From Carcharhinus longimanus (lineage: Eukaryota), in assembly GCA_030264375.1 (NCBI GenBank), contig JASCQW010000150.1:22019192-22083191 (forward strand): DNA of 64,000 nt. Reading direction: 5' to 3'. Position 1 is the first letter of the stretch. Every line of letters starts with the position of its first letter. Shown piece by piece: positions 692-43,057 of this stretch. Both the position numbers and the translations under genes were made by a program. The notes below the pieces were generated by a model that was given only the letters and a program-made list of their open reading frames with translations, searched no databases and had not been told where the DNA came from.

Positions 692-983
692 TGTCTGGAA
701 TGCTGGAAAATGACACCCTTCAGAGTATTTTGAGTATGACGGCAAAATCAGCCGGCTATAGAAAGAAAACAGGAGGTCTTTCTGGAGAAAATACTGCGCA
801 CACACTGAATTCCATCATTCAACAATTAAACTACTTCCATGATGTCCTCTCCAAACATGGTTTGCATCCTGAAATAATTAAACAAGTCTACCGGCAGATT
901 TATTACATAATTGCAGCAGTCACATTGAACAACTTGCTTCTAAGGAGGGATGTGTGTTCCTTTAGCAATGGAGTCCAAATCAG
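692..983 (+). CDS. Class V myosin (MYO5-like) globular tail, internal exon A
   Basis: Flanked by tgcag| and AG|gtaaaa. Translates (V)SGMLENDTLQSILSMTAKSAGYRKKTGG...IIAAVTLNNLLLRRDVCSFSNGVQI(R), matching the myosin V DIL-domain motif TLNNLLLRKDxCSxxxGxQIR. Confidence 0.93.
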
Positions 984-1388
984 GTAAAAGTCTCATGATT
1001 ATTGTTAGAATTTTGTAAAATCTTCTGTTGGCAGCAAATGCAAAAAGAAGTTATTGAACATTGTTCATTTGCCCTTTTACAGCAATGAAGGCTGTTTGCA
1101 CTGCATGTCTCATGAGCTGTCCAATGAGAGGCAATTAACTTAATTTGGAATAACACAAGTTTAGCTCTTTAAATTGGCATCAGTGTGTTTTATCCATGTA
1201 TTAGCATAATCAGCATAATATGCCATGAGGTTGATGTGCAACTCAAAGTGCTTTTCTTAGTGTTCTAGGTCTTCAGAGTGGGGGCGGGNNNNNNNNNNNN
1301 NNNNNNNNNNNNNNNNNNNNNNNNNNNNNNNNNNNNNNNNNNNNNNNNNNNNNNNNNNNNNNNNNNNNNNNNNNNNNNNNNNNNNNNN

Positions 1389-1580
1389 ACACAGGGTGGG
1401 GTTCTGGAATGTACTGCCAAGTGAGTGGTTGAGGGAGGTACGTTAGTCACATTTAAGACGTGCCTTGATATGCATATGAACAAACAAGGAATAGAGGGGT
1501 TTAAGCGGTCGGTTTAGATGGGTAAACATGATCGTCATAGGCTTGAAGGGCCTGTTCCTGTGCTACACTGTTCTTTGAGC
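1389..1580 (+). mobile_element. CR1 LINE 3' end fragment
   Basis: cagggtggg..ctggaatgtactgcca..gtggttgagg..catttaaga..cttgat..gggcctgttcctgtgctacactgttc is the typical CR1 ORF2 end plus 3' UTR. Confidence 0.7.
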
Positions 1581-4231
1581 CAAATATACTGCAGCTGCTG
1601 TATTTCTTTCAATAATGTGAATCAGGTGTACAGTGCATGCAGAGACGTGGTATTTTAGCCAATATTCATGTGGAATAGTACAGTCTTGGTGCTGCATCAT
1701 GCAATCATTGAAGGGGAAATAGTGTGGATGTGAGATGTAATAACATCAAGTCCCTGGCTGCCGGCAGTGAAATGTATAAATGTCTTTATTAGCCCTTGGA
1801 AAGTGCAATAGATGAGGTGGGGGCGGGGCAGGGAATTAAAGATGTTTCTGGCTGGTCATAAAATAAGCAGACCTTAAATGATTATCTCTATCTATCCGTA
1901 AGCTATACGGAACCCATTCCACAGGAGCTAGTAGTTGAACACCAGCATAAAAACAGCAATGGTTTGCTAGAACGCTGAAAGCGTGAAAGGTAGACTTTTA
2001 TAATATAGAAGATCCAGCCATTTCTACACATACTTGAGTTGACCACGAAACATAATTGAAACAATTTGTTTTCAACTGCAGTATTGAATTTTAAAGTCCC
2101 ACTTATTTAACCTGAATAATTAAAATGGTAAGCAGTTGAATCGCCAGCATGGATGTCCTTTTCTGGGAGGGAAAATGGTTGGTTAACAATAATGTAACCT
2201 TACATTTAGTTGTAACCATCTTGAGTGTTAAATCAATGTTGTGAAAGGTTCATTTAACTTCCCAAAATTGGAACAACTTTTTGGAGTTCTGTTCCTGTTC
2301 CTGTTACTAAACTATCTCTAAAACAGCCAGCTAGTAATACTTTTGATCTGACCCCTTCTGTTAATTACTGAGATGACAGTCCAGTAAGCAGTTCTGTGAT
2401 CATCCTGTTGGCAATCTACACACAATGCCCACTGCTATTCATGAGTGGTATGGTTTAGGCCCAAAAATCCTTGCCAGAAATTTTGTTCGAACTGCTCAAA
2501 AATGTTTGGAAGCGCTTGCTAATTGTATAAATCCCCTTGGAAATTGCATTTAATAGCTAAAGAATGACATGTCAATGTTTACACTTTTACTGTAACTAAG
2601 CCTAAAAGCTATTGACTAAACACCATTTTTGTAAATAACTTGTACCTCAAACTACAGAGAAACATTACCTTTTTTATGCTTATTACAGTCCTCGAAAACA
2701 GTCCACGAAAACAGTCCACAGTGCTCCCAGCTTCCAATGCTATCCCATAATCCACTTTTACTGACTAACTTTTTAATGATCTCCTCCAGGAACTTCCCTC
2801 AGCTTCAAGAGTCTCTTGAATCCACCACCAGCAGTAAACATGTTCTACAACCCTCCATCCTAGTCAGTATTGGATAATCTTCTGATAGATGCAGGATGCA
2901 TTTCATTGACTAGAGACCATCTCCCCCCATACCCAACTGCTTCTCTATGCTGACCACAAACTCTACTATGTGGCAATCCTTCATTTGTAGGGAAGCTTGT
3001 AACCTGATCACAAAAATTGTTTCCTCTGCTCTCTTCCCCATGGCAATGTGAAAGACATTAGCATTTCAATTTGGATACAAGGCTAATTAGCTGTTCTTGA
3101 AATCCTTTCATCTCGGAGGTAAATTGACTTTTTGCAGCACAATTATTTGCAACCCAAGACCTTTCTGGGACTTTGAGTCTTTGCCTACTCATTCCAAACC
3201 CAGAGACTTCTGCTGTTGCCTTCCTTTGATCTCCAATAATCAAACAACCCAGGCTTACTGTTGGGCAGACTGCAGAACAGGTCCTGTGACTCACTTCATT
3301 TGTCTTAAATTTAAAGATACAATCCCAAAATATTATGTCATCATTGTTACAACATGCATTGATTTGTTGATGAGCAAACACCATTAAGTTGTGGAAATCT
3401 CTGCAGTGCTGAATGATCCTAAGTTTCCACCAAATATTTAAATCAAATATGAAATTCAATTTTAATCTGAAATAAGTTCAGAAATAACCTCCAGAAATGT
3501 CATATCTGTAGATGTAGGAGAAATTACCAAGTTATTTAATAATGTTGGATAGACTACAATGTGTTGACTTGTAATTAGAAGATTTCCGCAAAATTTAAGT
3601 GTACTGCAGATGATTTGAGAAAGACAGATCTGCTTGAATTAGTTGTAGAGTTGAAACTTGGGCTTGAGTATTAGTTTGCTTTGTAAATGGCAAGAGATTT
3701 ATTGGCCACGTTGAAACTACATTCCTTGGAAAGTGGAATCTATAGAGCTGCACAATCCTAAAGCTACATTTATGAATTAGCCAATGTGTTGAAATAGTGC
3801 GTTGAATTGTTTTCAATTCAGAGGAAGGAATGAATCTTTCTAATCTGTACTGCATTGGAGTTGTGCTGATACTGGTATTGTGACTGATTCTTAAGCATAG
3901 ATAAGCCTTGGACCTTGTCAGACCTCCATAATACACAATTTAAATCTAAATTCTGATCATTGATGTTAAGTGGCTTTATGAAATTAAGTTAAATTTCCAC
4001 AAGACTGTCAATTATGCCAATGTGCAATAGACTGATATTTGAATATATCTATGGTTGTTTTGATTATAGACCATGATATGATCTTCCTAACATTTTACAT
4101 GTGGCTATATGCTTATCTTGTCATAAAATTTGACAGCCTACTGAGAGGTCGATTCTTGGCCTTTGCTGTACAGGTCTTATTATTTAGACAATTCCAAATG
4201 TTTCAGCATTCTCCTCCTCTTCCTGATCCAG

Positions 4232-4406
4232 AAACAATGTCAGCCAGCTCTCTGAATGGCTAAGAGGCAAGAACCTACATCAGAGTGGTGCACTTGAGAC
4301 ATTGGAGCCACTGATACAAGCTACACAGCTCTTGCAATTGAATAAGACAACTGAAGCAGATGCAGAGGCAATCTGCTCTATGTGCACAGCACTCTCAAAG
4401 ACACAG
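4232..4406 (+). CDS. MYO5-like globular tail, internal exon B
   Basis: Flanked by atccag| and CAG|gtgcat; phase matches exon A (AG+A=Arg). Translates [58 protein letters not shown]. Confidence 0.93.
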
Positions 4407-5954
4407 GTGCATTTCTATTTACCAACATATTTTGAGCATGCATACTGTAGTTATCTAAAAATGTTAGTTCAGTTGTAGTTTTAAAAGTACTAGGATTATG
4501 GAGGAATAGGTTTTGCAGAAATGTATTTTAAGGAGAGAGCAAAAATACTATTGAAATGATGGTTACTGAGTGCAATATAGTTGGGTAACACGTTCACAGG
4601 CAATATAGAAAGTATACTGTAGCTATTAATAGGATACAGCAGTTGCAACCAGAATTAAGCTGATGAAAGAAATGAATTATGAAGGGCAATTGCGTAAATT
4701 GGGTAGTTACTCACTAGAATAAGAATGTTATTCTAAATGATTGCAATAATAAACTGATCTGGAAGAGCTGTGTTGCCAGATCCAGAATAATTGCATCAGA
4801 GGGGACAGCCAGCACCCAAGGAGGTGTAATATTCAAAGTTAACATGTGAAAACATTATTTATATGCGCAGGTGGTGAGTCTATAAAACAACCTCCTTGAA
4901 GACAATGGACCCAGATTATATCGATTCCTTCAAATGTGAATTGGATCTCAATTTTCTTGGTGTACAGAATAATTTGAAGCAAGTTACTACAACATGAGGG
5001 GAACAGATAACTTTGGACCAACAGTTTCAAAGAATTCCACTATGGGTTTTTATTTTTGTCTAATTTTCTAGACAAATTGGTAATTGCCTTGTTTAATGGG
5101 CAACTTTTTTATTGTGCACTGCTGGACTGCCAACTGGCAAGAGGTGAACGAGAGGGAACTCCATGTTATTTTGCATGAGAATCAGGAAGATGATCGCATA
5201 ATGGAGTGACAGAAAAACATGGAAATGGTCCTTTCTGAGGATTTAATGGCTTCCAGCTGTTTACAGAGAAATAACTTCCTCCCCTTCCCTCCCGCATATA
5301 ATGCGGACTTGAGCATGTGCAACAGCCGCCTGCCACCGCCCCCCCCCCCACCTCTCCCCACCTTGCTGCTGGGAAAAGTCAGCATCACTTTTTAAAAATG
5401 TTCCCATTCACCTAGAGTTCTGGTATCCCAATGAGCAAGTTTTATTTTCCCCAGGTTGTGCTGGCTATGGAGATGGTTGAGTAGATGGCAGGCTTAGTCT
5501 GCTAAATTTCAAACACTAGCATTGTTATTTGATAGCTCACTGATGGAACAAGTTCCATCCCAAATCTCCTTGTTATAGAAGCTAAATGTCAAATTCATCT
5601 TGAGAAAAGGCCAGAGAACAACTAGTTGTGGATCTATACACTATAAGATTTGTGATATTTGCATCACGGGTGGTTGCTGGTTATCCTTGTTTACTTACCC
5701 ACTTGTGGCGGCTACTGCCTCATAGTGGGATCCCTCCTATGGGAGATAGTTTTAAATTTATAAAGTTGAGTAAAAATCTGATCAGATGCTTCAAAAATTT
5801 AACTTTCCGTGGTGTATTAGATGGAATTAAGTCCATTTGATTTTTTAAAATCTTGCTACATCTGTTCCCTTCTTGCAATTGTTACTTGGAAATTAGAATG
5901 TCATCCTGACAATTTCTTTTCTACTTACTGCTTTTACCTTTTGTTATGTAACAG

Positions 5955-6035
5955 ATTGTGAAAATACTGACTTTGTATACACCTATTAATGAATTTGAAG
6001 AACGTGTGACTGTTGCTTTTATAAAGAATATTCAG
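5955..6035 (+). CDS. MYO5-like globular tail, internal exon C
   Basis: 81-nt phase-0 exon, taacag| to CAG|gtatct. Translates [27 protein letters not shown], closest to recalled MYO5[28 protein letters not shown]. Confidence 0.95.
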
Positions 6036-6466
6036 GTATCTATTTTCAGTTATAGTAGCTGAAACAAGGCATGTTCAGTAATTACACCTAAATTTTAATT
6101 TTTCACATGTTTAGCCATGTAACAGTACTTTGCATGATCTTTTTTGTTATAGTTAAAGACTGATTTGGAAGCATGAAGTGGGTAGCTTTCTTGTGCATGA
6201 TTCTTTCCTTCTCCACTGTTCCATAAAGCAAGTACATGTACAATTGAAAATAATCTGATCTTTTTGTAGGAATAACAGAATTCCTTGGGTTTTTGAGCAT
6301 CTAATTTTTTATTTTTGTACTTTCTTGTAACTTATGATACTATAATACTGTAATTTGCATAACTTGGGTGTAAATGCCCTCTAAAATATTATCAGTTTTA
6401 ACTCTTCAGTGGGATAACTTGCCCTTTATTATACCATGAGTTTATGAATTTTGGCGGTATATCCCT

Positions 6467-7212
6467 GGGGTGAAATCTTGCCTTAAAACGGCAGTGAGTC
6501 TGGCAAGAAAATCGGCATTTTTCTCGAGAGAGACCAATCTATTTTGTCTCCAATCTTACTACATTTTTACCCAACAAAATTCAAGGGGGGAGGACTGAAA
6601 TGCACCAGCAAAATCCGGCTACACAGCGATCGGGAAGCCCTTTTTTACAGGGCACTGCAATCTGAGCAGCAATAACCCCCCCCACCCCCAGATCAGGGCC
6701 ACTATCCACTCCAATGTTGTCCCCCCCTAAAATTGACCATTGCTGGCATCCCCTGCTCACCTGTCTATTTCAGCTCACGACCACTTCTGCATGAGTCTTG
6801 TGCCCAACCCCCACCCCATGAGGCTCCCACTAGGTTCTGCCTCTTAGTACAGGATGGCACTACTACCCTCTGTAAAGGGACAATGCTGAGGGCATTGCCA
6901 GGGTACTGCCAAGCCATGTTCCTCCTCCCTTGGAGGCTATACTTGGTGGGGCTCCCCCATGAGAAGTTTGTGAATCTGTTGAAAAACTGTGCTGACTTGA
7001 TTTGCAAATATGGCAAGGGGTTATGTTACAGGGTGGCAGAGTGGTATTTTAATTGTATTAAAATACATGTAAATCAAGTTCACACCGTTTTATAGGTGTA
7101 AACCTGATGACATCGCTGGTGAGAGTGCAGGGAAGACCTGAAGCCACATTCTTACCAGCGAGTACCCTACCAGTATTTGCATGGATGGTGAAAGTGGGTT
7201 CAAGTTTGCCCC
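6467..7212. mobile_element. Non-autonomous DNA transposon / MITE-like GC-rich element
   Basis: Begins ggggtgaaatcttg and ends caagtttgcccc (imperfect terminal inverted repeats). C-rich interior resembles elements at 31237, 32380, 36616 and 49006. Confidence 0.55.
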
Positions 7213-7556
7213 CATTTTTGAGAGAATTAATGAACAAAGAATTGTGGATTGCTCATCCTTTAATTACAGTGGCCTTTTAAATGAAGGCACACTTTATATC
7301 ACAGTTTCATTCAATCTCCTCCCTGGGTCCAGATCCCAGATGGGAAAACGTATCATTTCAATAGTGCCATGTAAATTTATTTTCCTTTTGCATCATTCCA
7401 CCACCCCCCCTCCCCCGCAATCGCGCAAGCCCTGGCCAACTGCAGGACTTAAATGTTTCTTAGTCACTTAGTGCAATATTCAATGCTATTAGATTGAAAC
7501 ACTGAAAATTGCTGAGATTACCTTGCTGTTGTTACAGTTGTTTGTTTGACTTTGTA

Positions 7557-7722
7557 ATCATAGAATCCCTGCTCTACAGAAGGAGGCCATTTGGCTCATC
7601 AAGTCTGTACTGACTGCAATCCCACCCAGTCCTGTTCCCCATAACCCTCATTTACCCTCCTAATCCCCCTGATATCGTCAATTAGCATGGCCAATCAACT
7701 TAACCCGCACATCTTTGGACTG
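7557..7722 (-). mobile_element. HE1-like SINE 3' fragment
   Basis: catagaatccct..agaaggaggccatt..agcatggccaatcaacttaacccgcacatctttggactg matches the other SINE copies. Confidence 0.75.
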
Positions 7723-7895
7723 ATCTTTTTGATGAAACGTGTTCCCATAATTTCTGCAATTGGATTGCCTTGCTGTGGAATGCAGTGTAGATCTGAACCT
7801 TATTACATTTGAAATGTATTAGCCTTTCACTGCAAAACTAACCTATTATCACAGCTAAGGACGTAACTAGTTATACTGAATGTTTTGTCTTATAG

Positions 7896-8048
7896 AATCG
7901 ATTGGCAGGTAGAAGTCCAAGTCGTCAACTGCTAATGGAGTTAAAGCATGTGTTTGCTGTAAATTTTCCCATCATTCCTTCTCCTGTGAACCTGGACAAA
8001 ATCAAAATCCCTGAAATCTTGGAGCTGGACTTTCTAAATAGATTCTGA
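7896..8048 (+). CDS. MYO5-like terminal coding exon
   Basis: ttatag| acceptor. Translates NRLAGRSPSRQLLMELKHVFAVNFPIIPSPVNLDKIKIPEILELDFLNRF* (TGA 8046-8048), the same 50-aa length as the vertebrate MYO5 last exon. Confidence 0.92.
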   Translation, partial: NRLAGRSPSRQLLMELKHVFAVNFPIIPSPVNLDKIKIPEILELDFLNRF

Positions 8049-11000
8049 ACATATATATTAAGTTGGGACATCTGGAGTGGATTTATGACTTGTAAGGTTT
8101 TCGTTAATAGCTGCAGAGTATTGCAGAAGTAGCAGCTTGTTGCAAGTGACTACAATTACACTTGTGCGGTTGAATAGCAGCACCCTCTTAACGCTCTTAA
8201 GTTCACTTTGTGGGGTTATTGGTGGGGGGGGGGGAAGCAGCTTTTCTTACAAGCACTTATTTGCAGTTTGTTTGAAGATAACAGTGTAGTTCAGACATGA
8301 TGGGTGGCATTTTTTAGAAACATAAAAGAGCCTTTTGGTGGATTCAAGCCCAAAACCTAGGGGTAAAAGAGTTTGTGAAGGTCTAAGGACAGATGGAATT
8401 TTAGCTAAGGGTAATTGATTAAGGCTCACTGAAATTGTTTGTAGTTTGAGTACTTTGATTTGTTCACGTGCACCAAATTAATCTCTGCTGAGATGTTCGG
8501 TTTAGTTGTGATTCAAAGCTGAAGTGGTGTCGAGGCTTTTGAGCAGTTAACCTAACCACAGTGCAATTAATATGGTGCTTTTTCATGACATTTTTNNNNN
8601 NNNNNCAATAAAAGGACATACTTGTCAACTTTGTCTGTGTTTTGTTTCCAGTGAGTGACATTTTTCCTCCACCTGAGGAGTTGGGCATTCAATATTTAAG
8701 TCGTATGCCACTGATTTATGTTGCTGAGAGGAAAGTTTAAAATCACCTGAACCATTTCACTGATTTTAAGAACCCTATCCACCTTCCCAATGCTTAACGT
8801 AACATTGCTTCCTTTTGGTGGCCTGTCTCATAAGGACAACACAACTGAATAAAGCAAATATGAGATTGACATGGTTCTGTCTCGAGTATGTGCTTAAAAT
8901 GATTTGTTCTTGGATTATTTATAATAAAATGAACTTTTAAATAGGTAAGTGTATTTTTGTGATATTGGCCAGCAGATCAGTATGAAATGTACATTTAATG
9001 TGTATGTATAAATAGACTAATACTTTCAAAGTGACAATCTGAGGTTCCAGTCCAACATTTACATTTTTCTGCAATGCATATTAAAGAACTGTATTCTATA
9101 ATTGAAACCAATTGATTTTATAGAATTATTTCAATGTACTTCCATGTAGCTCTGCTGTAATATATTAATGTACTTTTTCTTGTCAGATTGTATGTTCATC
9201 CTTTTAAGTGTTCTTTAAATGAATTAATCTCCAATAAAATATTACTAAATATTATTAGTATCAGCAGTGGAGAAAATTACAGCTACACCATTGCTTTGGC
9301 CTAGGAAGGTCATGTTGATGACCAAAGTTATTTAAGATCTTAACACGAACAATATATCTCATAATATTCAACTGTGTGCTTTTTATTGCAGTTTGACACT
9401 ATTTTTATCTTTGTAACTTGATAATATTTTATGATGCAATCTATTTGAATGCACATTAAGGAAGTCTAGTAATACAAAAATTGTTGTTTTATTTAGACTT
9501 TGACACTTTAAAGCTGCCGTAACTTTATCATCACTTTGCTGCAGTGTTTAGCCCTGCACTCCATTGGTACCAAAATACAGTAATAGGTGAAGGTTTGCAC
9601 TTTTGAATCTTCAGAATGTAGAGTTCCTGATCTTGGTTTTTGCTAAAGGAAAAAGTGGCATGTGAATGCTATAAACTCCTAAGAAATCTAATTTTAAATG
9701 TCATTGGTCATGTAGGTCCATATTATTGCTCTCTGAAGACCGTTGCTGTAATTTGGATTTAATATTTTGTATTTGTACAGCTGGATTGAATATAGGTTTT
9801 TATTGCTGCCTGTTGAGGGAATTCTGTAATAGGTTGTTTGCATGTGGAAATGTTCTTGTTTAAGGAAGTAGGACTGACAACTATATGAAGTCAATGTATT
9901 AAACCTAGATTAATATCTACACAATATCTTGGTGTGTTTGAAATTGGAACTGAGACTGGAGATCAAACTAGTCATTGTGAGATATCAGATTTTGAGTNNN
10001 NNNNNNNNNNNNNNNNNNNNNNNNNNNNNNNNNNNNNNNNNNNNNNNNNNNNNNNNNNNNNNNNNNNNNNNNNNNNNNNNNNNNNNNNNNNNNNNNNTAA
10101 CATGTTCTCTAATTTTAGCTATAAATGAAAATCTTTGAAATTGATCCTAATCCAGGCTACCAAATGATAAAATTTTGGGAAAACAATGTTGGATGAAGAA
10201 GGAACTAACTGTTCTAGCACTACTATTCTTCTCTTCTCTTTGGGTTTTGGGGTGAGCACGGTTGGAAACTCCTGTCCTTGGTATCACCTCTTCCTAGCTG
10301 ACTTAAGTGTCTATGTAATACTAGGGTACTTTGTTCCTTGATTGGAGTGAAGTTGTAATTTATAGGATCACTGAACCCATTGTTTGTAAACAAAGTGATT
10401 AAATGACAGAATGAACAAGAATTTCTGGCTATAATTATTTTTTTAATTCTGTGTCTGTTTTATGTTAAAATATCTTTCTTTGCAAAGAGAAGCATTAGGG
10501 TTGTCCATTAATCAAACTATTGTGTAGTCTCTTTCTATAAAGATGGGGCTTTCAGTAAACCAGGCTTATCTTGTATTCTTAAGTAAGCTAATTTGTTCAT
10601 TACCTAGAATTTGCTTTTCTAATGCCTTTTCTAATCTTCTGGTATATTCAGTCTTTAAAATTGATCTTTAATGCTGACTATTTGCCAGAGAAACATTTTT
10701 CCATTCCAGTATGCAGTTTTAAATGGTATGAGGTGTAGTACCAGTTACTCTTCCATCATGTTGCTTAATATTCTCACCTTGTATTGCTATGCGTATGCAT
10801 GCTTTGATCTCTGGCTCCCTGTTGGTTTTTTCATTCATTATTATCAGTGATTGCATTCCTCAAGTCAACTTTTTTGTCCTACTAAACTTCTGAACAAAAG
10901 AAAAGGATTACTTGGCTGCCTCCCATTTCTGTTGCCAATGACCTTTTTAAGCATTCTAAGCTGTATTGCTTTGTCAGTAACTTGGAATAATTGAGTTACC

Positions 11001-15953: not shown

Positions 15954-16239
15954 TCAACTGCCCTCTTCAGCAGAACGTATGTCAGATTTTAATTTTACAA
16001 ACTCCTTTGCCACTTCATCATTGTTTCTTTGTGACAGTATCCTGAGGACAGTTAGTCCTGTCTCATCCATATGAATTCTGCGGCCAAGTGGTAACCAACA
16101 GGCACTACTTCCCTTCTGAATGATATCGCGCAGTTGCATCACAGCAATGCCCACACTTCGATCTTCTCGGGCAAAACAGTAATCCTTTACGCAGATCTGG
16201 AGTTCGTAACATTCTGGACCATCCTCAGCGCTCAAGGTG
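15954..16239 (-). CDS. UNC13A: UNC13A terminal coding exon (C2C C-terminal half)
   Basis: ttacag| acceptor. Translates [27 protein letters not shown]...[74 protein letters not shown] and KSDxRSAEEG fit UNC13A better than UNC13B or UNC13C. Confidence 0.93.
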
Positions 16240-16399
16240 CTGTAAAATAATGAAGCAAATTAAGTCAATAGGGTGCGTACAAAACTGATCTGTTTTGTTT
16301 TAGTACAACAAAATTTATTTGCCTTGATTTTTGTCTACTGTTAATAGCTGCAATAGCTCAGTAAGAAGGAAATTAGTTGACAATTTGTAACAAATTTAA

Positions 16400-17055
16400 C
16401 TTAAGTCTGACAGATGGGAGAATAATGTGGGAAAACATGAAGTTGTTCATTTTGGCAGGAAAAATAAGAGTTCAGAAGCAGAATTGAGGTGCAAAGGGAT
16501 CTAGTGTTCTAGTACACGAGTCACAAAGGTACAAGCAAATAAGGCTAATGGAATGCTATCAGTAATTCTGAGAGGAATTGAACATAAGATGTTATACTTT
16601 AGTTTAAACATCAAATTGTGTGCAGTTTTGGTTTCATTTGAAGAAGGGTGTAAATATGTTGGAGGTGGTTCAGAGGAGGTTTATAAGATTGATATCTGAA
16701 ATAAGTCTTATGAGGACAGGCTGGCTTGTTTCCACTGTAGTTTAGGAGAGGGTGACTTCACTGTCATATGTAAGAGCCTGAATGGTCTTTGATGTGGAAA
16801 GAATGTTTCCTCTGGCGGGTGAATCCAGAACTAGGGAGACTGTTTTTAAAATTAGGGGGTTGCCCTTTTAGGACAGATGACTTTGGAACACTTTGCCTCA
16901 GAAGGTGGCAGACATGGGGTCATTGAATATTTTTAAGGTGGTAGGGAGATTCTTGGTGAAGGAATAGGTGCAAACGTGGAATTCAAAACACAAACCGATA
17001 AGTCACAGTCTTAATGACTAGCTGAGTAGGCTGAATAACCTAATTTCGGTACCTA
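16400..17055 (+). mobile_element. Degenerate CR1 LINE ORF2 3' region
   Basis: gaagttgttcattttggcaggaaaaat, ggaggtggttcagaggaggtttataagattgata and tccagaactaggg motifs; many stops and indels. Confidence 0.75.
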
Positions 17056-17800
17056 TTTCATAGAGAGTTGATAGAGATACTCAAAAGCACTTGGAGATTG
17101 TGACAGCAAAGATGGTGAGAAGTTGATCTTGTTGGCAAAGGGCAAAAGAAGCAACAGCAATATGAATAAATGTTTACACAATGACTGGTTAGGATCTAGA
17201 ATTGAGATTGTGCAGGCAATTCTTAGTTGAGGCTTCTTAAAGCACTTGATAGAGGAATATGGTATGGGGTTAGGGAGGAGACGTGGGACTATTCTGTGAA
17301 CCAGTATGGACATGTGGGGCTAAATGAATTAATACAACTGCTGTCGTCATAATTGTTTCAGCAGATAGATGTCAGAGAGCTGAAGGTAATTCTTAGTAAT
17401 TAGCAGCTCTGCCCTCTTCTCTTTTACTAATAGAATTCAAAGTTGCAGGAGGTTATAGCATTCAACTACATGGTTATTAATTATCTTTGTGCGCACAACA
17501 TGTTGCTTTCAAAAATCTTAGATTAATGTAGAAAAATGCTAAAATATTAAATTTGGTTCACAGATGAAAAAAATCAAGTGGAACTATTCTTCCCAGGGTA
17601 AATGATACATAATTACAGTGTTTGAATTATTAAAAACATGTTAGTTTATGGCATATTTAACTCAGCCTGCTTTAAATGGAGACAGTTTAAACCATTGACC
17701 CAATGGTTCTGACCATTGGGGGAACAGTAGTGCAGGGGTAATGTCACTGGGCTAGCAAGCTAGAGGCCCAGCCTAATGGCAACTGGTGAGGGGGAGAAAA

Positions 17801-18474
17801 GGGGTGGCTCAGTGGTTAACACTGCTGCATCACAGTGCCAGGGACCCAGGTTTGATTTCCCTACTTGGGTCACTGTGGAGTTTGCACATTCTCCCTTTGT
17901 TTGTGGGTTTTCTCTGGGTGCTCCAGTTTCCTCCCACAGGCAAAACAAGTGCAGCTTAGGTGGATTGGCCATACAAAATCCCTCATGGTAGGTTGGTGGA
18001 AAAGGTTAAGGCTCATGGGATACAAGGACAGGTGTCTAGATGGATTGAGAACTGGNNNNNNNNNNNNNNNNNNNNNNNNNNNNNNNNNNNNNNNNNNNNN
18101 NNNNNNNNNNNNNNNNNNNNNNNNNNNNNNNNNNNNNNNNNNNNNNNNNNNNNNNTTTCCTCCCACACCCCAAAAACGTGCTCTTAGGCTGATTTGGTGT
18201 AACAAGTTGTCCCTAAATCAGTCTTCCCTCAATCTTCCCCAATAGGTGTAGACAAAGGTCATAGGTAGAGGAGAGCACGCAATGTTAAAATGGCGGTGTG
18301 GACTCGTTGGGCCAAAGGGCCTGTTTCCTGTGCTGTGTTGTTCTTTGTTAAATTGCCTCTTTAGAGGAAGGGGGATTAGCTAGAGTAAATGTATGGCGTT
18401 AGGGCCTAAGTGGGATTGTGGTCAGTGCAGATTTGGTGGGCCAAATGGCCACCTTCTGCAATGTAGGATTCTGT
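17801..18474 (+). mobile_element. HE1-like SINE interrupted by a CR1 RT fragment, a gap and a variant SINE tail
   Basis: SINE 5' half 17801-17973; CR1 RT peptide KIPHGRLVEKVKAHGIQGQVSRWIENW at 17975-18055; SINE resumes at about 18349 (taaattgcc) and ends about 18474. Confidence 0.75.
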
Positions 18475-18539
18475 AAAATTGTCTCATTTCCAACCCTCGT
18501 CTGTTGTAATATAAAATCAGCTCTCAGATGTGGGATGAT

Positions 18540-20290
18540 TATTTATTCTTTCATTGGCTGTGGGTGTTGCTGGCTTGCTAGCAATTATTGCCCATTACTA
18601 ATTGCCCTTGATGTTGAGCCATTTTCTTGGATTATTGTGCCCATGTGTTGTAGGAACATGTACTGTGCTGTTAGGGAGGGAATGCCAAGGTTTTGATGCA
18701 GTGTGAAGGAACAGTGCTATAATTCTAAGTCAGGCTGGTGTGTAGCTTGGAGAGGAGCATGCATCTGTGGTTGGTGTACTCCCAACCTCCTTACCCCCTC
18801 TCACCGCATCAATTGCCCTTGTCCTTCTAGATGATATATGTTGTAGGCCTCGAAGGTGATAGAGGAACCTTGGTAAGTTGTTGTAATACACTCAGAGCTG
18901 GTACACATTGCTCCCTCAACATCACACCATGCAGCAAATGTTTAAAGTGATGGATGGGGTGCCAATTAAGCAGGCTGCTTTGTGCTAGGTGGTACCTAGG
19001 TTCAAGTCTTGTTGGATGTGCATTCATCCAGGCCCATGGAAAGTTTCCCAACATACTTGTGACATGTAGATAATGGACAGTGGATAGCTGGGGAGTCAGA
19101 AGGTGACACATCACAGAATTCCCAGCCTCTAATGTTCTTGCAACCAAAGTATTTATATATAATGGTAACCCTTGGACTGTTAGTGGGGATTGACCAAGGG
19201 TAATGTCATGTGGAGATGGTCAGTGCTTGGCTCTTCTGTGGTGCAAATGTTACTTGCCACTAAATCAGTCCAAACCTAAATGTTAGCCAGGTCTTGACGT
19301 ATTCTGTATTTGAACAACAATGGCATCAGAATCTGGATTCGAGACTGGTGCTGAACATTGTGCAATCATCAGCAAACCTCCCCACATCTGACTTTATGTT
19401 GGAGGAAAGGTCATTTAACCAACCAAGAATGGTTGTGTTTGGGACACTACCTGAGGAACTCATACAGTGATGACCAGGGACTGAGATAACTGACCAACAC
19501 TATCAATCATGTATTGTTATGCTGCATATAACACCAATCAATCAGTGGAGAATTTTCCCTGATTCCCAATGCCTTCAGTTTTGTTAGGGGTGCTTGACAT
19601 CACAGCATAAGTTTAACCTTGTGTGACATCAAGGGCTGTTACATTTGCCTCACTGCATGTTCATCTGTTTTGTCCAGGTTTGTACCAAGGCTATAGAGAT
19701 CAGAAGCTGAGTGTCAGAAAGCAGGTTATTGCTGTTGAAGTGACACTTGTTAAGTGTCAATGACACTTTCCATCACTTTGAGTAGACTGCTGGGTGCTAA
19801 TTGACAGGAATGGACTTGTGCTGCTTTTGTGGACAGGATGTGGTTGGGTAATTTTTCACATTGCTGGGTAGATGCCAGTGTTGTAGCTATACTGGAACAG
19901 CTTGGCTAGGGTTCAGTTTGCTTTGGAGCACAAATCTTCAGTACTATTTTGTGAATGTAGTAATCAATGCCTTTGCAAGGAATACACAGATTGGCAGCTG
20001 TGATTCAGAATAATCATCCATGGTTTCTGGCTCAAAACTGACTGCAAACCCTTGCCTTTACCCTGATCTATTAGTGCCCCCGTCATTGAGGATGGGAATA
20101 TTTGGCGTGTCCTCCACTTAGTTATTCAGTTGCCCACCACTATTCACAACTGGAGAACTTGGATCTGATCTGTTGTTGTGGATTCACTTAGTTCTCTTGC
20201 ACACTTTCACTTGGCATGCAGAGGTTCAGTATTGTAACTTCACTGAGTTGTTATCTCATTTTCAGGTATGTCTTTTGCATTCTTCATTAG
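18540..20290 (-). mobile_element. Old CR1-clade LINE fragment
   Basis: Reverse-complement similarity to the LINE fragment at 28087-29130 (e.g. aatgttacttgccact, ccaaacctaaatgttagccaggtctt, gtgctgaacattgtgcaatcatcagc). Confidence 0.7.
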
Positions 20291-20771
20291 TATGGCTTGA
20301 GAATTGGTTTATGGTCAGAAAACACAATACATAAAATGGATCATTTTCATTTTGGTAGGCTGTAACTAAAGGGGTAGTTCATGGATCAATACTTGGCTCT
20401 CAGTTATTTAAATCTACAGAATTGAATTAGATGAGAGAAAAACAATCCAGCTTTGCCTTTTGAGGAAAAGAATTCCAGAAAGTGACAATCCTCAAATTCT
20501 CATCTCCATCTTAAATGAACAACCCTTTTAACAGTGACCTCTAATTTTAGATTCTCAGACAGGACAAAACATTCTCTCCCTAGCAATCCTGGCAAGAGCC
20601 CTCAGGATCTTTGACGTTGCCTCTTATTTGTATTTCTAATGGACACAAAACTAACCTTTACTCATAAAATAACTCACTCATCCTGTGTTCGGTGATTAGG
20701 GTGTCCCTTCATTCTATACCCCCAATCAGTTGTTGTTGGGTTATCTTGGAAGAGGTTGGATGCAGTGTACT

Positions 20772-21106
20772 GGTGAGTCTGAATTGCGATTGTACTATAA
20801 TTTTCAATTGTATTGCCAGTTCGCAGGACTTTTGTTAGTTTGCGCTTTCTGTAGCGGGACCTAGGTGCAAGGGCAGTAGAGAAGGGAGTGCGGGAGTACA
20901 AAAAGGCGGCCGCAAGAGACAGCAGGCAGCGGAGTGAAGGTGAGTGCTGCAAGGGCTTTAGCTCATAAGGCTTAGGTGAGTTACTGGTCCGATTTTTCCA
21001 TTTGTGCCATAAGGCTAAGGGCGGGCAATTAAATGACAGGGTCCTTGGGGAGGTGTGTTAGGTGCAATACGTGGGAGTTCACGAGGAGGAGAGAGGGAGA
21101 AGGGGG
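20772..21106 (+). mobile_element. CR1 LINE 5' UTR and ORF1 start (putative)
   Basis: CpG-retaining GC-rich leader; ATG at 21033 gives MTGSLGRCVRCNTWEF, with the CxxCxxWE pattern of a CR1 ORF1 zinc-finger start; runs into a gap. Confidence 0.55.
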
Positions 21107-21206
21107 NNNNNNNNNNNNNNNNNNNNNNNNNNNNNNNNNNNNNNNNNNNNNNNNNNNNNNNNNNNNNNNNNNNNNNNNNNNNNNNNNNNNNNNNNNNNNN
21201 NNNNNN

Positions 21207-21510
21207 ACTATCACTGTTTGCTGTGCAGACACATGGATTTGGGCCAGTGTCTGTGGGAGTTTGCGCATTCTCCCCGTGCTTGCTTGCATAGGTTTTCACC
21301 AGGTGCTCCAGTTTCCTCCCACACCCCAAAGATGTGCTATTAGGCTGATTGGCAGTAATAAATTAGTTTCCCTCAATGTGGATGGCCATAAAACAATAGA
21401 TAAGGGTCATGGGTGGAGGGGGCTACTGGTAGTGTTAAAATGGTGGCACGGGCTCGTTGGGCCGAAGCGCTTGTTTCCTGGGCTGTTTTTGTTCTTTGTT
21501 CTTTACTGTT
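21207..21510 (+). mobile_element. Variant SINE (HE1-related) with CR1-like tail
   Basis: gtctgtgggagtttgcgcattctccccgtg..tttcctcccacaccccaaagatgtg..gggccgaagcgcttgtttcctg..gttctttgttcttt; same variant as 18156-18348. Confidence 0.7.
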
Positions 21511-21762
21511 AGCAAAAGACCTAGTTGGAGCCAGCTGAACAATAGATACATTGATAAATGGATAGATTCCTTCACTTGGTTTTTAATTCTGATGGTTGAA
21601 TTTTGACTACTCTGATGTTTCAAAAAACATTAAAATACACTGAACTCCAGAGGTTTGGTGAGAATGACTACCCTTGACATCAAGGCAACATTTTACCAGA
21701 GAGTTGTGGAAAATGTAGTGATTGAAGCAGAGATAATGTCAACCTTTTTAAATGGAGAATGA

Positions 21763-22041
21763 ACCATAGAATTCCTGTAGTGCAGGAGGATGCCATTCAG
21801 CCCATCAAGCTTGTACCAACCACCCAGGCCCTTTCCCTGTAATGTCATGTATTTATCCTACTAATCCCCTGAACACTAAGGGGCAATTTAGCATAACCAA
21901 TCCACTTAACCTGCACATCTTTGGACTTTGAGAGGAAATCAAAGCACCTGCAAGAATGTTCAAACTCCACACAGTCACCCAAGACTGGAATTGAACCCAG
22001 GTCCCTGGCACTGAGACAGCAGACCAATGCACTGTGCTGCC
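21763..22041 (-). mobile_element. HE1-like SINE, near full length
   Basis: Matches the copies at 1-173 and 61772-62100 across head, body and tail. Confidence 0.85.
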
Positions 22042-22048
22042 ATGACAG

Positions 22049-22155
22049 TCATGATGTGGGTATGCCGGCGTTGGACTGGCGTAAACACAGTAAAAAGTCT
22101 GACAACACCAGGTTTTAGTCCAACCGAAAACCTGGTGTTGTCAGACTTTTTACTG
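22049..22155. mobile_element. Short fold-back element (Penelope-like terminus derivative)
   Basis: Perfect 29-bp inverted repeat (22088-22116 / 22127-22155) with flanking direct repeat ctgccatgacag (22037-22048, 22153-22164). Confidence 0.75.
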
Positions 22156-22522
22156 CCATGACAGAACAGGATAGAGGAATAAAGGGACTTGTGAATATAA
22201 GGGGCATTTTATATCGTAAGGATAAATACTGATATGGACCGAGATGAGTCAAATGCTTGTTTATACATTGTAATTTCACCATTGGGCAATTTTCTGCTCT
22301 TGTGACTAAAGAGTTCCCTGTTTAAAGGTTCACCTACAAGATGTAAATGATTTGTAGAAATGGATAATCCCAGAGAATTGGAACATTTAGAACCCACCTA
22401 TGGCAGGACACAAAAATTGGCTGTACTGAGCATTAATCTGAGCTGTTGCACTAACTTAGAAAGGAACGATCAAAATTCCAGCAGCTGGAATGATCACCAA
22501 AAGAGTAAGAAAAGATACTTAC

Positions 22523-22682
22523 AATTGAAAAGTTTCGTTGAATTTTGGAGCCCAGCTATTGTTTTTGGATTTGGTGGCAAACCTCCTCTTCTTGTCACTA
22601 AGGTGAGGCCCAATCATATTAACTTCAACAAATGGACGGAAGATACCAGTTGTTTGCCACTTTAGATCATTGGCAGCCACAA
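22523..22682 (-). CDS. UNC13A: UNC13A exon (C2C)
   Basis: tag| to TT|gtaagt. Translates [54 protein letters not shown]; phases match both neighbours. Confidence 0.95.
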
Positions 22683-23289
22683 CTACAAAGTGGGGGAAGA
22701 AACAGAGACTTAATTGCAGATTTAAACACAGTTTCTAGGTGCTAGAATTTCAGAGGATTAACATGGAATTTAGATCCAGATGTCACAGTTGTGCCACAAT
22801 GATTCTATTCCACTAGTCCATGGTGTAGCTACATCAAGAATGTAATTATGCCTCTTGATGCAGCAGATTACCTAATCAATTCTTTATAGATGGCAGCATT
22901 ATTTATGAACTATGGAAGTACACATTCTGTCAAGTAAATACTCCCAAAATTGGTAGGAAGAAATCAATTACACAAATGTGCTGTTTTGAATTTTTTTCAT
23001 TTCTAATGAGCATGGAGAGTGTTTTTAGTTCCCTTGGTCATTGTACATTTTCAATTAGAGCGCGTGTACAGTTGGTAAAATTTTAAACAGTTAATGAATG
23101 TCAATGTATAAATTTAAAAACAGAAGCTGGTGGAAATATTAAACAGGTCTGTTAGCATCTGTGGAGCGAGAATCAGATTTCCAAAATCTGGAATATTCTG
23201 CTTTCCTATTAGCACAAGTTAATTTGATTTTCAACAGGTCGTTGTTCTCAGTGGCCAACTATGAATATCAGGTAAAAAAGGAGAGAGGA

Positions 23290-23850
23290 ACTTGAAACAA
23301 TCATAATCACTCATTGCTTGTGATCTTCCAAAATTTCTTGGGTTATGGAAATGTTCCAGTGGATTGGAAAATTGAAAATAGTATCTCAAGGAAAAATACG
23401 GGAAACTATGGGCTAGTTAGCCTAATGTCTGTCACAGAAAAAATGTTAGGATCCATTATTAAGGAGGCAACAGAGGAAACTTAAAACTCATCATAGAAAC
23501 AGGCAGAGTCAACATGGTTTTGTGAAAGAGAAATTATGTTAACCTAATTTATTGGAGTTCTTTGAGGAAGTAACAAACAAGATGGATGTGGGAGAATCTA
23601 TTGATGTGGTGTACTCGGATTTACCAAAAGGCATTCAAAAGATCGCACCTGCATCAAAGGTTACTTATCAAATTAAGATCTTATGGTATATTGGGTAACA
23701 TATAACCATGGGTAAAGGATTGGTTAGCTAACAGGAAGTAATGATAAATAGGTCATTTTTGGGTTTGCAAGCTGTTAGTAATGGAGTGCCACATGGATCA
23801 GTGCTTGGGCCCAAGTATTTTCAATCTATATCAATGACTTAGATGGAGGG
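23290..23850 (+). mobile_element. CR1 LINE RT fragment
   Basis: ggcagagtcaacatggttttgtgaaa (QHGF), gatgtggtgtactcggattt (DVVYxDF), ggagtgccacatggatcagtgcttgggccc (GVPxGSVLGP), tatatcaatgacttagat (YINDLD). Confidence 0.85.
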
Positions 23851-26414
23851 AACATTGTGAAATAGACCCTCAGCTAAATTATATAATGCTCAAAATATGA
23901 ATGAAAGTTTAATTATGTTTTTGGAAAGCAGATATTTACTGAGAGCCATCAGTTAAATGGATGTCCTTGTTTCTCAATACAATCTTATCTATTCTCGGCA
24001 AGAACCTGAGGGGGAGAAGCACACAGGGAGCAGAACATGTAACAAGTATTAATGGAGCAGGGTGTAAAGCTCGAGCAATGGGAAATCACACCATAATGAG
24101 AGAAGTGTGTGGATAACAGAGCAGAGAGGGAGCAGGACTAAGACAAGAGGAGGCACATGGCTTAAGCAGAACTTGCTGCTGGCTAATGTTTATTCACTCA
24201 CTCTTGAATACATGCACCTTAGGATCTCACCCAAGTCACCCCATGTAGATCCCGGTTTGAGAACCACTATCTTCTGTTCGTATTTCTACCTTCATGTGGC
24301 TAATCATTCCCAGCATTCTGTGCTTTTGTGACCTGGAGTAAAATGGATTGGATGGGAGGGGTAAGGGACATCTGCAAGGCCAGGCCAAGTTACTGAATCA
24401 GGGTTAAAAAAAATGGGAACTCCTGGACGCTGAAATGCAGCAGGAACTCGAGCAATTCAAAGGCTGAAGAGAATTGATTTTTTTAGTCAGTTCTGGATTT
24501 CCAAAATGTTTTAGCACTCTACCAGTTTGCATTTAGAATGTCATGCGAGATTGCAACCACTAGCTTATCTTCTCCACCACCAACCCTTTACATCCTTTCC
24601 CATTTAATTAATGAGTGAAACTGCCCACTAGCTTTCTGCTGATAAAATTCAGCTTCGTAATAGCTTTTTGCTCTCCCTTTAGAGAGAAAATGAGTCAGGG
24701 AAAGCGAAAGAAAAAGCAATTCTACACTGCTGGGCATTTACCAGAATTCAGTGACAGTGATAGGGCCCTATTTAAAAAAAAAAATCGGTCTCCATAAATC
24801 TCACAGTAGAATTTTGAAGGCGCTAATTATTCCTTTGTGATTAGATTGATGCCGTTCTTCATTGTTAATCATTTATGGTATGGTTTATGCCTGAAGTGAC
24901 ACTTTGGGAACATGGTTGACTTGTGATTGTGCAAATTATTGAGAGGGATGTTTGATTTTGATAACTGTGGTTTCATCTTTTGACTTCCCAATGCACCTCA
25001 ACCTCGCTAAAGGTTTGTGAGATGCCCTGGATATACAAATTTCTGCTTGGAACTCTGGTTGCTCATTAAGGTTTGACTTAATACACATCTGAAGATCTGT
25101 TTTATAATATTTACACTTATGTCACTAGTGGGACACATCACTTTATGCTGGAAATATGTATTGAACTTTTTGAAAAGATAACTTTTCCTAGGCAAAGGAC
25201 ACTGGCTTACAGCAGCTGTATTTGGAATAGTCAGAGACTACCACAGGGCCAACAGTTTCACTTCATTTCTCTTAATTCTGAAATCTCTCAAAGCTGAACT
25301 GTTTGAGAGTTGAAAAACCCACCAGAAGACTTCATTGCTCCAAGCCAAGAGTTTGTAAAGGACAATTCTGATTCAACCAGCCATGACTGCAAACCAACTG
25401 CTTCACTGTGGAAAGCATTCGTTCAGTTGTAAGCAAACCTCTGGACAATCCATAAATTTACTTGTTACATGACCAAGTTTTAAAAATCTGATATTCTGCA
25501 AAGTTTTACTTTTTTCAGGCCTGGGGGACAATTTTTGTCTTGTTTCTATATTGCATTAATTGGACATATTTGTATATTTTAAACCTTTTGTTAACTTCTG
25601 CATCTTCACTGATGTGAATTTTAGCAATGAAACTAACTCTACTTGAGAGAGACTGGGTGACTTATTTCTTGCACCAAACTATCCACAGTTTAAAAATATA
25701 CTAAATTGGCAATATCATTCCCTTTTAAATTCAAACTCTATTATAAAGTGGGATAAAGAGAGGAGTCAGTTCACCCCTGCTAACTTGGTTGTAACAAAAA
25801 AACCCTTTTAAAAGTGAGGCAAATCACTTTCTTGCATTAATGCATTTATTTGTGCCTTTTTATTGCACTGATTATTTCCTTACTACTTGTTATTCATCTA
25901 ATCAAGATACTTTTGTCTAGGGTATGAGAAATACTTTTCTTGCATAAACTTAACCAAGATATCTCAGTTCTTGTGCAAATCCAATGCCATAATGGTACAG
26001 GCCTCAACACAGGGTGGGGCCAGATGGGCTATTTAAGATTTTCCAAATGCAATTCACTAAATTACATTTTGTAGACCTAAAATTCTGCTTATAGTCCATA
26101 TCTCCCAAAATTAAATTTCCATAATCTAGCTTTTACAGTACAAAGTTTGGCAAATATTATTGAACATGTGTTAAACATAATTAACATTTATTACAAAGTA
26201 TCTGCACATTTTTGGTATCTACAAAACTCTACCTTCATTCCAAAAGGCAACTGCTATAATATTTGCAATAGAAATTCTTACATATAAACTTCAATTGCTA
26301 AAAATGTAGCAATTCAGCTGTTACATTTTGAGACGTTCAGAGGATGTAGTTTTTAAATTTTCTATGCCATGAATGTTAAAAAAGTTAGAGCTTGGATGAT
26401 TCAATGTAACTCAC

Positions 26415-26507
26415 CTTTAACTGTGATTTTGTGCTCTCCAGTGCCTGGATGTGTGAAAAGCTCTACATGGATGGACACTTCTCCTACTGGATCATCCACG
26501 CCAGATC
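26415..26507 (-). CDS. UNC13A: UNC13A exon (start of C2C)
   Basis: cag| to AAAG|gtgagt. Translates [31 protein letters not shown]. Confidence 0.95.
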
Positions 26508-27296
26508 CTGTGAAGTAGCAGATTTCAAATTTTAAACACCACCTTAATGATGATGAGCAACTTTATACGTAACATTCAGTGCAAGACTCACTGTGTGCGA
26601 AGTGAGCCACCAATCCCCTCCCTCCCCCCGGAAAGGGCTTATTTTGATAACTGGGACAACCCAATGAGTCACATGCTTAAACTCATCCAATTGATGTACC
26701 TATCCCCTTCTCCCAGTGCAAGCAAAATATCAGCCATCATAAATGCCACTGGTTCTGCTCTGGTGAGTTTGATGCAATACAATTAACAGACACCAGCCTA
26801 CATTCGAATCTGCATGACAAACATTATTCAGTTTGTTGGGAGCCAAATTGCAATTAAAATACTTCAAAATTAGGCAATAAATGCAAGATGCGCTTAATGG
26901 TCAAAACCAGTAATTTGGTAGATCAATCATGCAAGAGCTTCTGCTTTTCAACAGATATAGTCAAACCTTGATTTTTTTGTTTCTCTCTCTCCTTACAAAC
27001 TGAATATATTATTTTCAGAGGCAATTCCATTTCAGGGTCTTGCAAAAACCTTTCCTTTTTACCCAAATTAAAAAAGTCCTCCATATAATTACAACTGTAA
27101 CAAGCAACCCACTACCCTGTGTTCGGTTTTTTTCTGTAGGAAGCTGCATGCTACAAAAACATGCACAAAGACTGCTCAATTTGGGTGTTTAGTACTAGAT
27201 TCTTGAAATCCCACTTCTTGGACATCAAGTGAACAGTTGTTTCAAACCCAGGCATTCTAATGCTGCCATTGACGGCAACATTATGCTCGAACGTAC

Positions 27297-27353
27297 CCTT
27301 TTCAGGATAAACCTCCTCGCTATGGGTAAACCTAATACCCTTCCCACCATGCA
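27297..27353 (-). CDS. UNC13A: UNC13A 57-nt frame-preserving cassette exon (MUN-C2C linker)
   Basis: Long polypyrimidine tract, ctcag| to AAGG|gtacgt, phase 1-1. Translates VHGGKGIRFTHSEEVYPEK, similar to the recalled rat Munc13-1 insert VHGGKGTRFTLSEDVCPEM. Confidence 0.85.
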
Positions 27354-27986
27354 CTGAGTTGTGAAATCAAAGCCAGACGGCAGGCGAAAATGAAAGGAAG
27401 AAGAAATTGAAGTGAGAATACGCATAGAAGACAGACACAGCAGTTAACCTACAAACATCTTTAGACAAATGAAGATCATCAGAAAACAGTCCAGACACTC
27501 ATGGTGTACTGCCATTTTCAGTCAAAGGTCTGTAAAGGTCAAATGACAATGTTGAGAACCATTTTGCATCTTTGTTGCTTTGTTTGAAATCAGTATTATT
27601 GGTTAGTTCATGTGGTGTTAGAGTTGATGTATTATTAATAGAATGTTGCAACCAAGCATTCTTCTAGTATTGCATTGTTATGGAAAATTATAGGACTCAA
27701 CAAATCGATCAATAGATCACCTGTTCTCCAATTTTATTCAACAGGTACTTCATCCAGAATCAAATTTAATTGTAATATGAAATTATTACAGAAATAAGAC
27801 TTAAAGTCATTCTGTCAGTTTTTACTTGGAGCAATTATTTTTCATTTGATCTCCTTAGCTGTGTATATTATATGTAACACAAAATTCATTGTAAAGCTCA
27901 GCTTTTAAACATTGTCATCCAACCTTTCAACACATTACAATTTAGGACAAAAATTTATATATTGTGCATTAAGACATTACGGTATG

Positions 27987-28086
27987 NNNNNNNNNNNNNN
28001 NNNNNNNNNNNNNNNNNNNNNNNNNNNNNNNNNNNNNNNNNNNNNNNNNNNNNNNNNNNNNNNNNNNNNNNNNNNNNNNNNNNNNN
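27987..28086. other. 100-N assembly gap of unknown true size within UNC13A
   Basis: Run of 100 N, located where the missing MUN exons are expected. Confidence 0.9.
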
Positions 28087-28089
28087 TAC

Positions 28090-29130: not shown

Positions 29131-29134
29131 CCTT

Positions 29135-29572
29135 AGTCTAACCCTCCTGTCCTCCTGACTCCCCAACCTGAATAGCCCTCACCAACCCCACTATCCAACT
29201 TTCCCTCTCACCCCAACCTGACTGACTAGATCCAACCACCTGACTATCCCGACCTGATCCAACTCAACCATCCCAAACCACATACCACCCTAACCACATC
29301 ACCCCAATCCACCTGCCACCCTACTCACCTCTACATTACTGACCTGCCTACTGCCCCACTTCACCCACCTGCTACCTTGCCACCCTTCCCACATGCCACC
29401 CTACACTCTTACCTACTCACCCAACCCCTTACACACATCTCACCTGCCCTATCCCCTTAGCCACTTACTTTACCCATTCTATCCTCTACCAAACTTATCT
29501 CACTGGCTCTACCCCCTTATCCACTTCCTTCATCCACCCATCACCTTACCTTCTTCCCTTCTCTCCATAGCT
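29135..29572. repeat. C-rich low-complexity tract
   Basis: Degenerate caccc/taccc/acctgcc units, very G-poor on the + strand. Confidence 0.7.

Positions 29573-30667: not shown

Positions 30668-30823
<156 letters not shown>

Positions 30824-38460: not shown

Positions 38461-38589
<129 letters not shown>

Positions 38590-42787: not shown

Positions 42788-43057
<270 letters not shown>

What the first reader, a model, noticed from the sequence alone, without database searches (positions are those of the whole stretch)
692..8048. Possible fourth vertebrate myosin V paralogue, tail-to-tail with UNC13A
Seen: four intact, in-phase exons of a myosin V cargo-binding tail ending 7.9 kb from the UNC13A stop. 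The protein is a mosaic: [11 protein letters not shown] and ERVTVAFI are MYO5B-like; QQLNYF, KTT, PSP and FLNRF are MYO5C-like; VSGMLE and AICSMC are MYO5A-like. Established: human MYO5A and MYO5C lie at 15q21 near UNC13C, MYO5B at 18q21, and UNC13A at 19p13 has no MYO5 neighbour. Inference: this is a whole-genome-duplication ohnologue retained in cartilaginous fish and lost in mammals, likely auto-annotated as 'myosin-Vb-like'. It may already be catalogued in myosin surveys; I cannot check that.
Basis: partly seen in the sequence, partly recalled or inferred. Interest (0 to 1): 0.7.

Follow-up and report, generated by a model that had tools for sequence, protein, structure and literature searches.

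The report
Known fourth myosin V gene (myo5bb)
This is the tail end of an intact, spliced shark gene for a fourth myosin V cargo motor, already published as myo5bb; it likely arose in an early vertebrate genome duplication and is reported missing from mammals, so it is a correct spot of a known gene.

Summary
Real, and already known. The four exons are intact, have AG/GT ends and are joined in a public transcript-like contig. They end a myosin V gene of about 111 kb with an intact motor. The same shark genome has separate MYO5A, MYO5B and MYO5C loci. Tail and motor trees put the gene in its own jawed-vertebrate clade, sister to MYO5B; a shark-specific MYO5B duplication is rejected. Its neighbours (ONECUT, MBD2/3, MEX3, UNC13A) are mirrored beside MYO5B and MYO5A/C. 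This is myo5bb of Nuckels, Nice and Garcia 2019 (PMC6372264): the listed neighbours match, and the teleost members of my clade carry that paper's diagnostic P-loop. Two points fail: the gene is not limited to cartilaginous fish (sturgeon, teleosts, turtles, an owl and a frog have it), and the 'mosaic' has no support. Small addition: 14 of 14 chondrichthyan copies change four Rab11-contact residues, including Y1714 to N, so Rab11 binding is predicted to be weak or lost (untested). The scan's earlier notes held nothing on this gene.

The parts
692..983 (+). myo5bb globular-tail exon (fourth from last); carries the positions equal to human MYO5B W1706 and M1710, here F and V
   Evidence: AG/GT ends; PDB matches; alignment; partly covered by contigs of X1-X3
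4232..4406 (+). myo5bb tail exon (third from last); positions equal to Y1714 (here N), Q1748 (kept) and K1750 (here N)
   Evidence: junction from exon 1 seen in 3 of 3 runs of one study
5955..6035 (+). myo5bb penultimate exon; keeps the lysine equal to MYO5A K1781 (autoinhibition)
   Evidence: residue role from PMC3858360 passages; numbering mapped by me from the alignment
7896..8048 (+). myo5bb last coding exon with TGA stop
8049..8585 (+). likely 3' UTR: contigs of the RNA-like runs reach 8585; an AATAAA lies near 8607
   Evidence: tables 2 and 8; the transcript end is not shown
15954..55376 (-). 3' part of UNC13A (12 exon matches), tail-to-tail with myo5bb; exons for about 460 residues have no match in the window and a 100-N gap lies there

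Best explanation
The four exons are the spliced, intact cargo-binding tail of the shark myo5bb gene, a fourth jawed-vertebrate myosin V that is sister to MYO5B and likely arose in a vertebrate whole-genome duplication. Shown: a full-length gene with intact P-loop, switch I, switch II, six IQ-like motifs, coiled coil and tail; separate A, B and C loci; duplicated neighbours. Inferred from the family: it works as a two-headed actin motor that carries vesicles through its globular tail and folds back to inhibit itself (motor D136 and tail K1781 kept, K1708 changed to R). Predicted and untested: the chondrichthyan protein binds Rab11 weakly or not at all, because W1706, M1710, Y1714 and K1750 are F, V, N and N, so it would be recruited to cargo through another adaptor, as a specialised spare copy of MYO5B.
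For: Gene: tblastn of the white-shark relative P0002 finds ordered exons from window -103,476 to 8048; three of the four unmatched stretches coincide with N runs and the fourth is a short segment that other sharks also lack. No stop in the 917-position motor and IQ translation, 83 of them X; motifs. A motor exon finds exactly 4 hits at 80-100% identity among 25 myosin hits: C150 (this gene), C1 (best match Vb), and two on C163 180 kb apart (best matches Va and Vc). Tail tree, 38 rows: bb 93/93, MYO5B 100/99, bb+B 100/98. Motor+IQ tree, 26 rows: bb 100/99, MYO5B 100/100, bb+B 82/90. AU tests reject a chondrichthyan duplication of MYO5B (p 2.7e-6 tail, 7.0e-6 motor) and reject chondrichthyan bb joining MYO5B without the bony members (p 0.004, motor). 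Synteny: C150 has ONECUT 20.66 Mb, MBD2/3 21.79, MEX3 21.86, MYO5 21.92-22.03, UNC13A; C1 has MYO5B 28.5-28.6, MEX3 29.25 (same strand, upstream), ONECUT 46.0, MBD 48.8, UNC13 52.2; C163 has MYO5C/A 17.5-17.7, UNC13 22.8, MEX3 31.7. Link to the published clade: onecut3, mbd3b, mex3d and unc13a (printed 'unk13a') are in its synteny list; both teleost members with a motor carry GESGSGKT, and none of the other 23 rows with a P-loop does; one teleost member is annotated as mbd3b. Rab11 site: F, V, N, N in 14 of 14 chondrichthyan copies; aromatic at 1714 in 8 of 8 MYO5B, 7 of 7 MYO5A and 8 of 9 bony bb; Y1714E abolishes Rab11a binding (PMC7496772 passages).
Against: bb support in the tail tree (93/93) is under the tool's starred level, and bony members are long branches. 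The motor alone does not reject bb+MYO5A (p 0.106), though the tail does (p 0.0026). The site-mixture tree finished only as a quick search (bb 85) and held a frame error in one exon of the genome's MYO5C, fixed afterwards. No lamprey, gar or coelacanth bb sequence was in my sets, so 1R versus 2R timing is not tested. Paralogue names of ONECUT, MBD and MEX3 on C150 are inferred (MBD hits score best to MBD2 chains). Q1748, the other known Rab11 contact, is kept in all rows; Y to N is not the tested Y to E. The assembly misplaces two MYO5A exons, so long-range order may hold errors.
Confidence: 0.95

Rival explanations
1. It is the shark MYO5B, or a shark-specific copy of it, moved next to UNC13A.
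For: MYO5B is its sister group and its closest paralogue by a hair (59.8% versus 59.0%); many databases name relatives 'myosin-Vb-like'.
Against: A true MYO5B sits on C1 and groups with white-shark Vb at 100/99; AU tests reject the nesting in both partitions; bony vertebrates have the same clade.
Confidence: 0.02
2. It is a chimera of MYO5A, B and C made by recombination or gene conversion.
For: Exclusive matches go to all three (B 16, A 9, C 9), with a borderline tendency to cluster (p 0.057).
Against: Motor and tail give the same clade; 10 of the 34 exclusive matches are also the amphioxus state and 66 columns are unlike all three; tail exons are 72-92% identical to chondrichthyan orthologues.
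Confidence: 0.02
3. A fourth paralogue, but from a segmental duplication rather than a genome duplication, or sister to MYO5A/C rather than MYO5B.
For: Motor-only AU test does not reject bb+A (p 0.106); bb+B is only 82/90 in the motor tree; no cyclostome sequences tested.
Against: Four neighbour families recur on C1 and C150 over megabases; tail gives bb+B 100/98 and rejects bb+A; PMC6372264 maps the loci to separate fragments of one ancestral chromosome.
Confidence: 0.08
4. A decaying pseudogene.
For: Some exons are not seen, and the clade evolves faster than A or B.
Against: No stops in the exons read, intact catalytic motifs, spliced contigs, and 92% tail identity to the white-shark copy; missing exons coincide with N runs.
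Confidence: 0.01

Closest known systems
myo5bb clade (Nuckels, Nice, Garcia 2019, Genome Biol Evol, PMC6372264; parts 1-7 of 8 of the text and part 1 of 2 of the supplement read, figures not seen)
   Same: Fourth MYO5 paralogue sister to MYO5B; neighbours onecut3, mbd3, mex3d, unc13a; present in shark, ray-finned fish, turtles and birds; reported absent from mammals; divergent cargo-binding domain.
   Different: No difference in identity. The paper sampled one chondrichthyan and analysed Rab11 sites in teleosts only; here 14 chondrichthyan copies share W1706F, M1710V, Y1714N, K1750N while teleosts keep W and Y. Sharks keep the ordinary P-loop. A frog (Discoglossus) has the gene, whereas the paper found none in Xenopus.
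MYO5B (myo5ba) of jawed vertebrates
   Same: Sister clade; same tail intron positions in this genome; MEX3 upstream on the same strand.
   Different: About 59% tail identity; bb proteins lack most of a roughly 95-residue segment of the proximal tail and the exon D segment; Rab11 contact residues changed in chondrichthyans.
MYO5C
   Same: Also changes W1706 and Y1714 (to C and C in 3 of 3). That MYO5C does not use Rab11 is recalled, not from a call.
   Different: Separate clade (100/100), tandem with MYO5A on C163, 46% identity.

Membership tests
class V myosin | motor with P-loop, switch I and switch II, six IQ motifs, coiled coil, DIL globular tail | tested here: met
   IQ count by eye
myo5bb (PMC6372264) | clade separate from MYO5A, B and C, spanning chondrichthyans, ray-finned fish and sauropsids | tested here: met
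myo5bb (PMC6372264) | sister to MYO5B | tested here: met
   tail 100/98 and bb+A rejected; motor weaker, 82/90 and bb+A not rejected
myo5bb (PMC6372264) | neighbours of the onecut3, mbd3, mex3d, unc13a set | tested here: met
   UNC13A named by homologues; ONECUT, MBD2/3 and MEX3 family genes on C150, paralogue names inferred; tcf3, btbd2, hmg20b, zbtb7 not searched
myo5bb (PMC6372264) | teleost members carry P-loop GESGSGKT | tested here: met
   2 of 2 teleost members with a motor; 0 of the other 23 rows with a P-loop (paper text)
myo5bb (PMC6372264) | groups with the paper's own shark record XM_007910183.1 | tested here: inconclusive
   elephant-shark XP_007908374.1 (P0020) groups with the window at 100/100; that it is the product of XM_007910183.1 could not be checked
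myo5bb (PMC6372264) | absent from mammals | tested here: inconclusive
   the few mammalian rows placed fell in A or B; searches list only top hits (120 of 2160), so absence rests on the paper
MYO5B orthologue (myo5ba) | nests in the MYO5B clade and is the genome's only MYO5B | tested here: not met
Rab11-effector myosin V | aromatic residue at 1714 and Q at 1748 | tested here: not met
   N at 1714, Q1748 kept; binding itself not testable here

The most novel reading that the evidence does not exclude
In cartilaginous fish the fourth myosin V has a rebuilt Rab11-binding surface (W1706F, M1710V, Y1714N, K1750N in 14 of 14 copies from chimaera to rays and sharks) and is a Rab11-independent vesicle motor with its own adaptor, a change parallel to MYO5C and absent from bony-vertebrate myo5bb.
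Probability: 0.4. Interest if true: 0.4.

Novelty: already known. Interest (0 to 1): 0.2.

Why it matters
As a gene discovery it does not: myo5bb was described in 2019. It remains a little-studied, often misnamed gene (only 3 papers in the library use the name; databases call it Va-like, Vb-like or Vb), so orthology mistakes are likely in shark, fish and bird work. The fixed change of Rab11-contact residues in chondrichthyans offers a simple natural test of how myosin V tails switch cargo.

Tried and rejected
Name 'MYO5D' or 'myosin Vd': 5 papers hold 'myo5d', none on this topic by title or abstract; none in the main text of PMC11231147 or bioRxiv 591974 or in the held supplement of Kollmar and Muhlhausen 2017, whose Figure S11 on vertebrate duplications I could not see and which may also list this gene. 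Other searches found nothing further. The two primary papers on the MYO5B-Rab11 interface were not held, so residue roles come from PMC6372264 supplement table 5, PMC7496772, PMC5021521 and PMC3858360 passages. Aegotheles 'Vb-like' (P0098) was expected to be bb but is MYO5B, so names and short lengths do not diagnose the clade. No RNA holder is on record for the stretch; tissue and level of expression are unknown, and splicing of exons upstream of the window was not examined. The serine at the MYO5A S1650 position is G here but varies among chondrichthyan copies, so I make no claim on it. The Rab8-site Q1300 is not kept even in shark and coelacanth MYO5B, so it is uninformative. No exon D match was found in the matching intron, a weak negative. 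No fold or complex prediction was run. Rows dropped between trees for speed: five; unnamed or distant rows were left out of later trees. The scan's earlier notes returned nothing relevant.
Full report
Observation. Exon 1 matches solved MYO5A, B and C tails. One contig of an RNA-like run joins all four exons without a mismatch, and the first junction is in 3 of 3 runs of that study, while the fourth run laid reads through the introns. The convergent gene is UNC13A, 7905 nt stop to stop.

The whole gene. The window is on contig C150 of the genome. The closest proteins are shark, ray and chimaera sequences named 'myosin-Vb-like' or 'Va-like', 64-84% identical in exon 1 against 54-57% for true MYO5A. 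With the white-shark one as query, ordered exons run from window -103,476 to 8048. Three unmatched stretches coincide with N runs. The motor and IQ exons translate without a stop and keep the P-loop, switch I and switch II.

Other paralogues in the same genome. A motor exon finds four class V loci among 25 myosin hits: this gene, one on C1 that matches Vb best, and a tandem pair on C163 matching Va and Vc. Tail exons of B and C were recovered there.

Trees. In the tail tree (38 rows, LG+G4) the window lies in a chondrichthyan group (100/100) inside a wider clade with sturgeon, four teleosts, a turtle, an owl and a frog (93/93), sister to MYO5B (100/98) (names). The motor and IQ tree (26 rows) gives the same clade at 100/99, with bb+B at 82/90. 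AU tests reject a chondrichthyan duplication of MYO5B in both partitions; bb+A is rejected by the tail (p 0.0026) but not by the motor (p 0.106). A site-mixture run finished only as a quick tree, with the same groups and bb at 85, and contained a frame error in one MYO5C exon that I fixed. Long branches and the lack of cyclostome, gar and coelacanth bb sequences limit the timing claim.

Synteny. C150 carries ONECUT, an MBD2/3 gene, MEX3, this myosin and UNC13A in that order. C1 carries MYO5B with MEX3 upstream on the same strand, plus ONECUT, MBD and UNC13. C163 carries MYO5A/C, UNC13 and MEX3. This pattern is what a genome duplication would leave (inference).

Prior work. Nuckels, Nice and Garcia 2019 (PMC6372264) named this clade myo5bb, found it in teleosts, gar, coelacanth, elephant shark, turtle and birds but not in mammals, anole or Xenopus, listed onecut3, mbd3b, mex3d and unc13a among the synteny genes, and assigned it to the vertebrate genome duplications. 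Their teleost signature GESGSGKT is in 2 of 2 teleost members of my clade that have a motor and in no other row, and one of those members is annotated under mbd3b.

Mosaic claim. The tail is about equally far from A and B, 66 of 229 columns match none of A, B or C, and the 34 exclusive matches are not significantly clustered (p 0.057), with 10 of them also the amphioxus state. An old independent lineage explains the pattern without recombination.

How it likely works. By family knowledge it is a dimeric actin motor that carries vesicles with its tail and inhibits itself by folding; D136 and K1781 are kept and K1708 is R (roles from PMC3858360 passages). The bb proteins lack most of a roughly 95-residue proximal-tail segment and exon D. 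Of the ten Rab11 contact positions in the paper's table, W1706, M1710, Y1714 and K1750 are F, V, N and N in 14 of 14 chondrichthyan copies; position 1714 is aromatic in 8 of 8 MYO5B, 7 of 7 MYO5A and 8 of 9 bony bb rows, and C in 3 of 3 MYO5C; Q1748 is kept everywhere. Y1714E abolishes Rab11a binding in human MYO5B (PMC7496772 passages). I therefore predict weak or no Rab11 binding and another adaptor, at about 40%. The paper already suggested changed cargo for teleost myo5bb; I did not find the chondrichthyan pattern in it or in the searches.

Verdict. A correct identification of a real but published gene. Novelty: already known. Interest 0.2.

Noticed in passing
window 27987-28086 (UNC13A): Exons for about 460 residues of UNC13A (1021-1483 of P0340) have no match in the window; 90-95% matches to a part of them lie on unplaced contigs C1729 and C4750, so this is likely a scaffold gap, not a deletion.
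   Followed up: yes
L002 (C109:64.95 Mb) and L006 (C163:4.76 Mb): Two consecutive MYO5A tail exons sit alone, far from the MYO5A motor at C163:17.73 Mb; likely assembly misplacement.
   Followed up: partly
P0148 (Discoglossus pictus): A frog protein falls in the myo5bb clade in both trees, on a long branch; the 2019 paper found no copy in Xenopus, so losses within amphibians may be patchy.
   Followed up: partly
P0098 (Aegotheles): A bird 'myosin-Vb-like' is true MYO5B, while an owl protein (P0161) is bb, so birds as a group have both.
   Followed up: partly
G000 C61289:194-509: A further UNC13-like match (65-72% identity, stops inside both pieces) on a small contig; could be a fourth UNC13 copy, a remnant or intron read-through.
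   Followed up: no
L069 (C24379): A divergent ONECUT-type CUT domain on a 1.3-kb unplaced contig; no ONECUT was found on C163, where ONECUT1 would be expected.
   Followed up: no
window 1400-1580 and 7556-7722: High-copy interspersed repeat fragments in the introns, with very high depth in all four runs laid.
   Followed up: no
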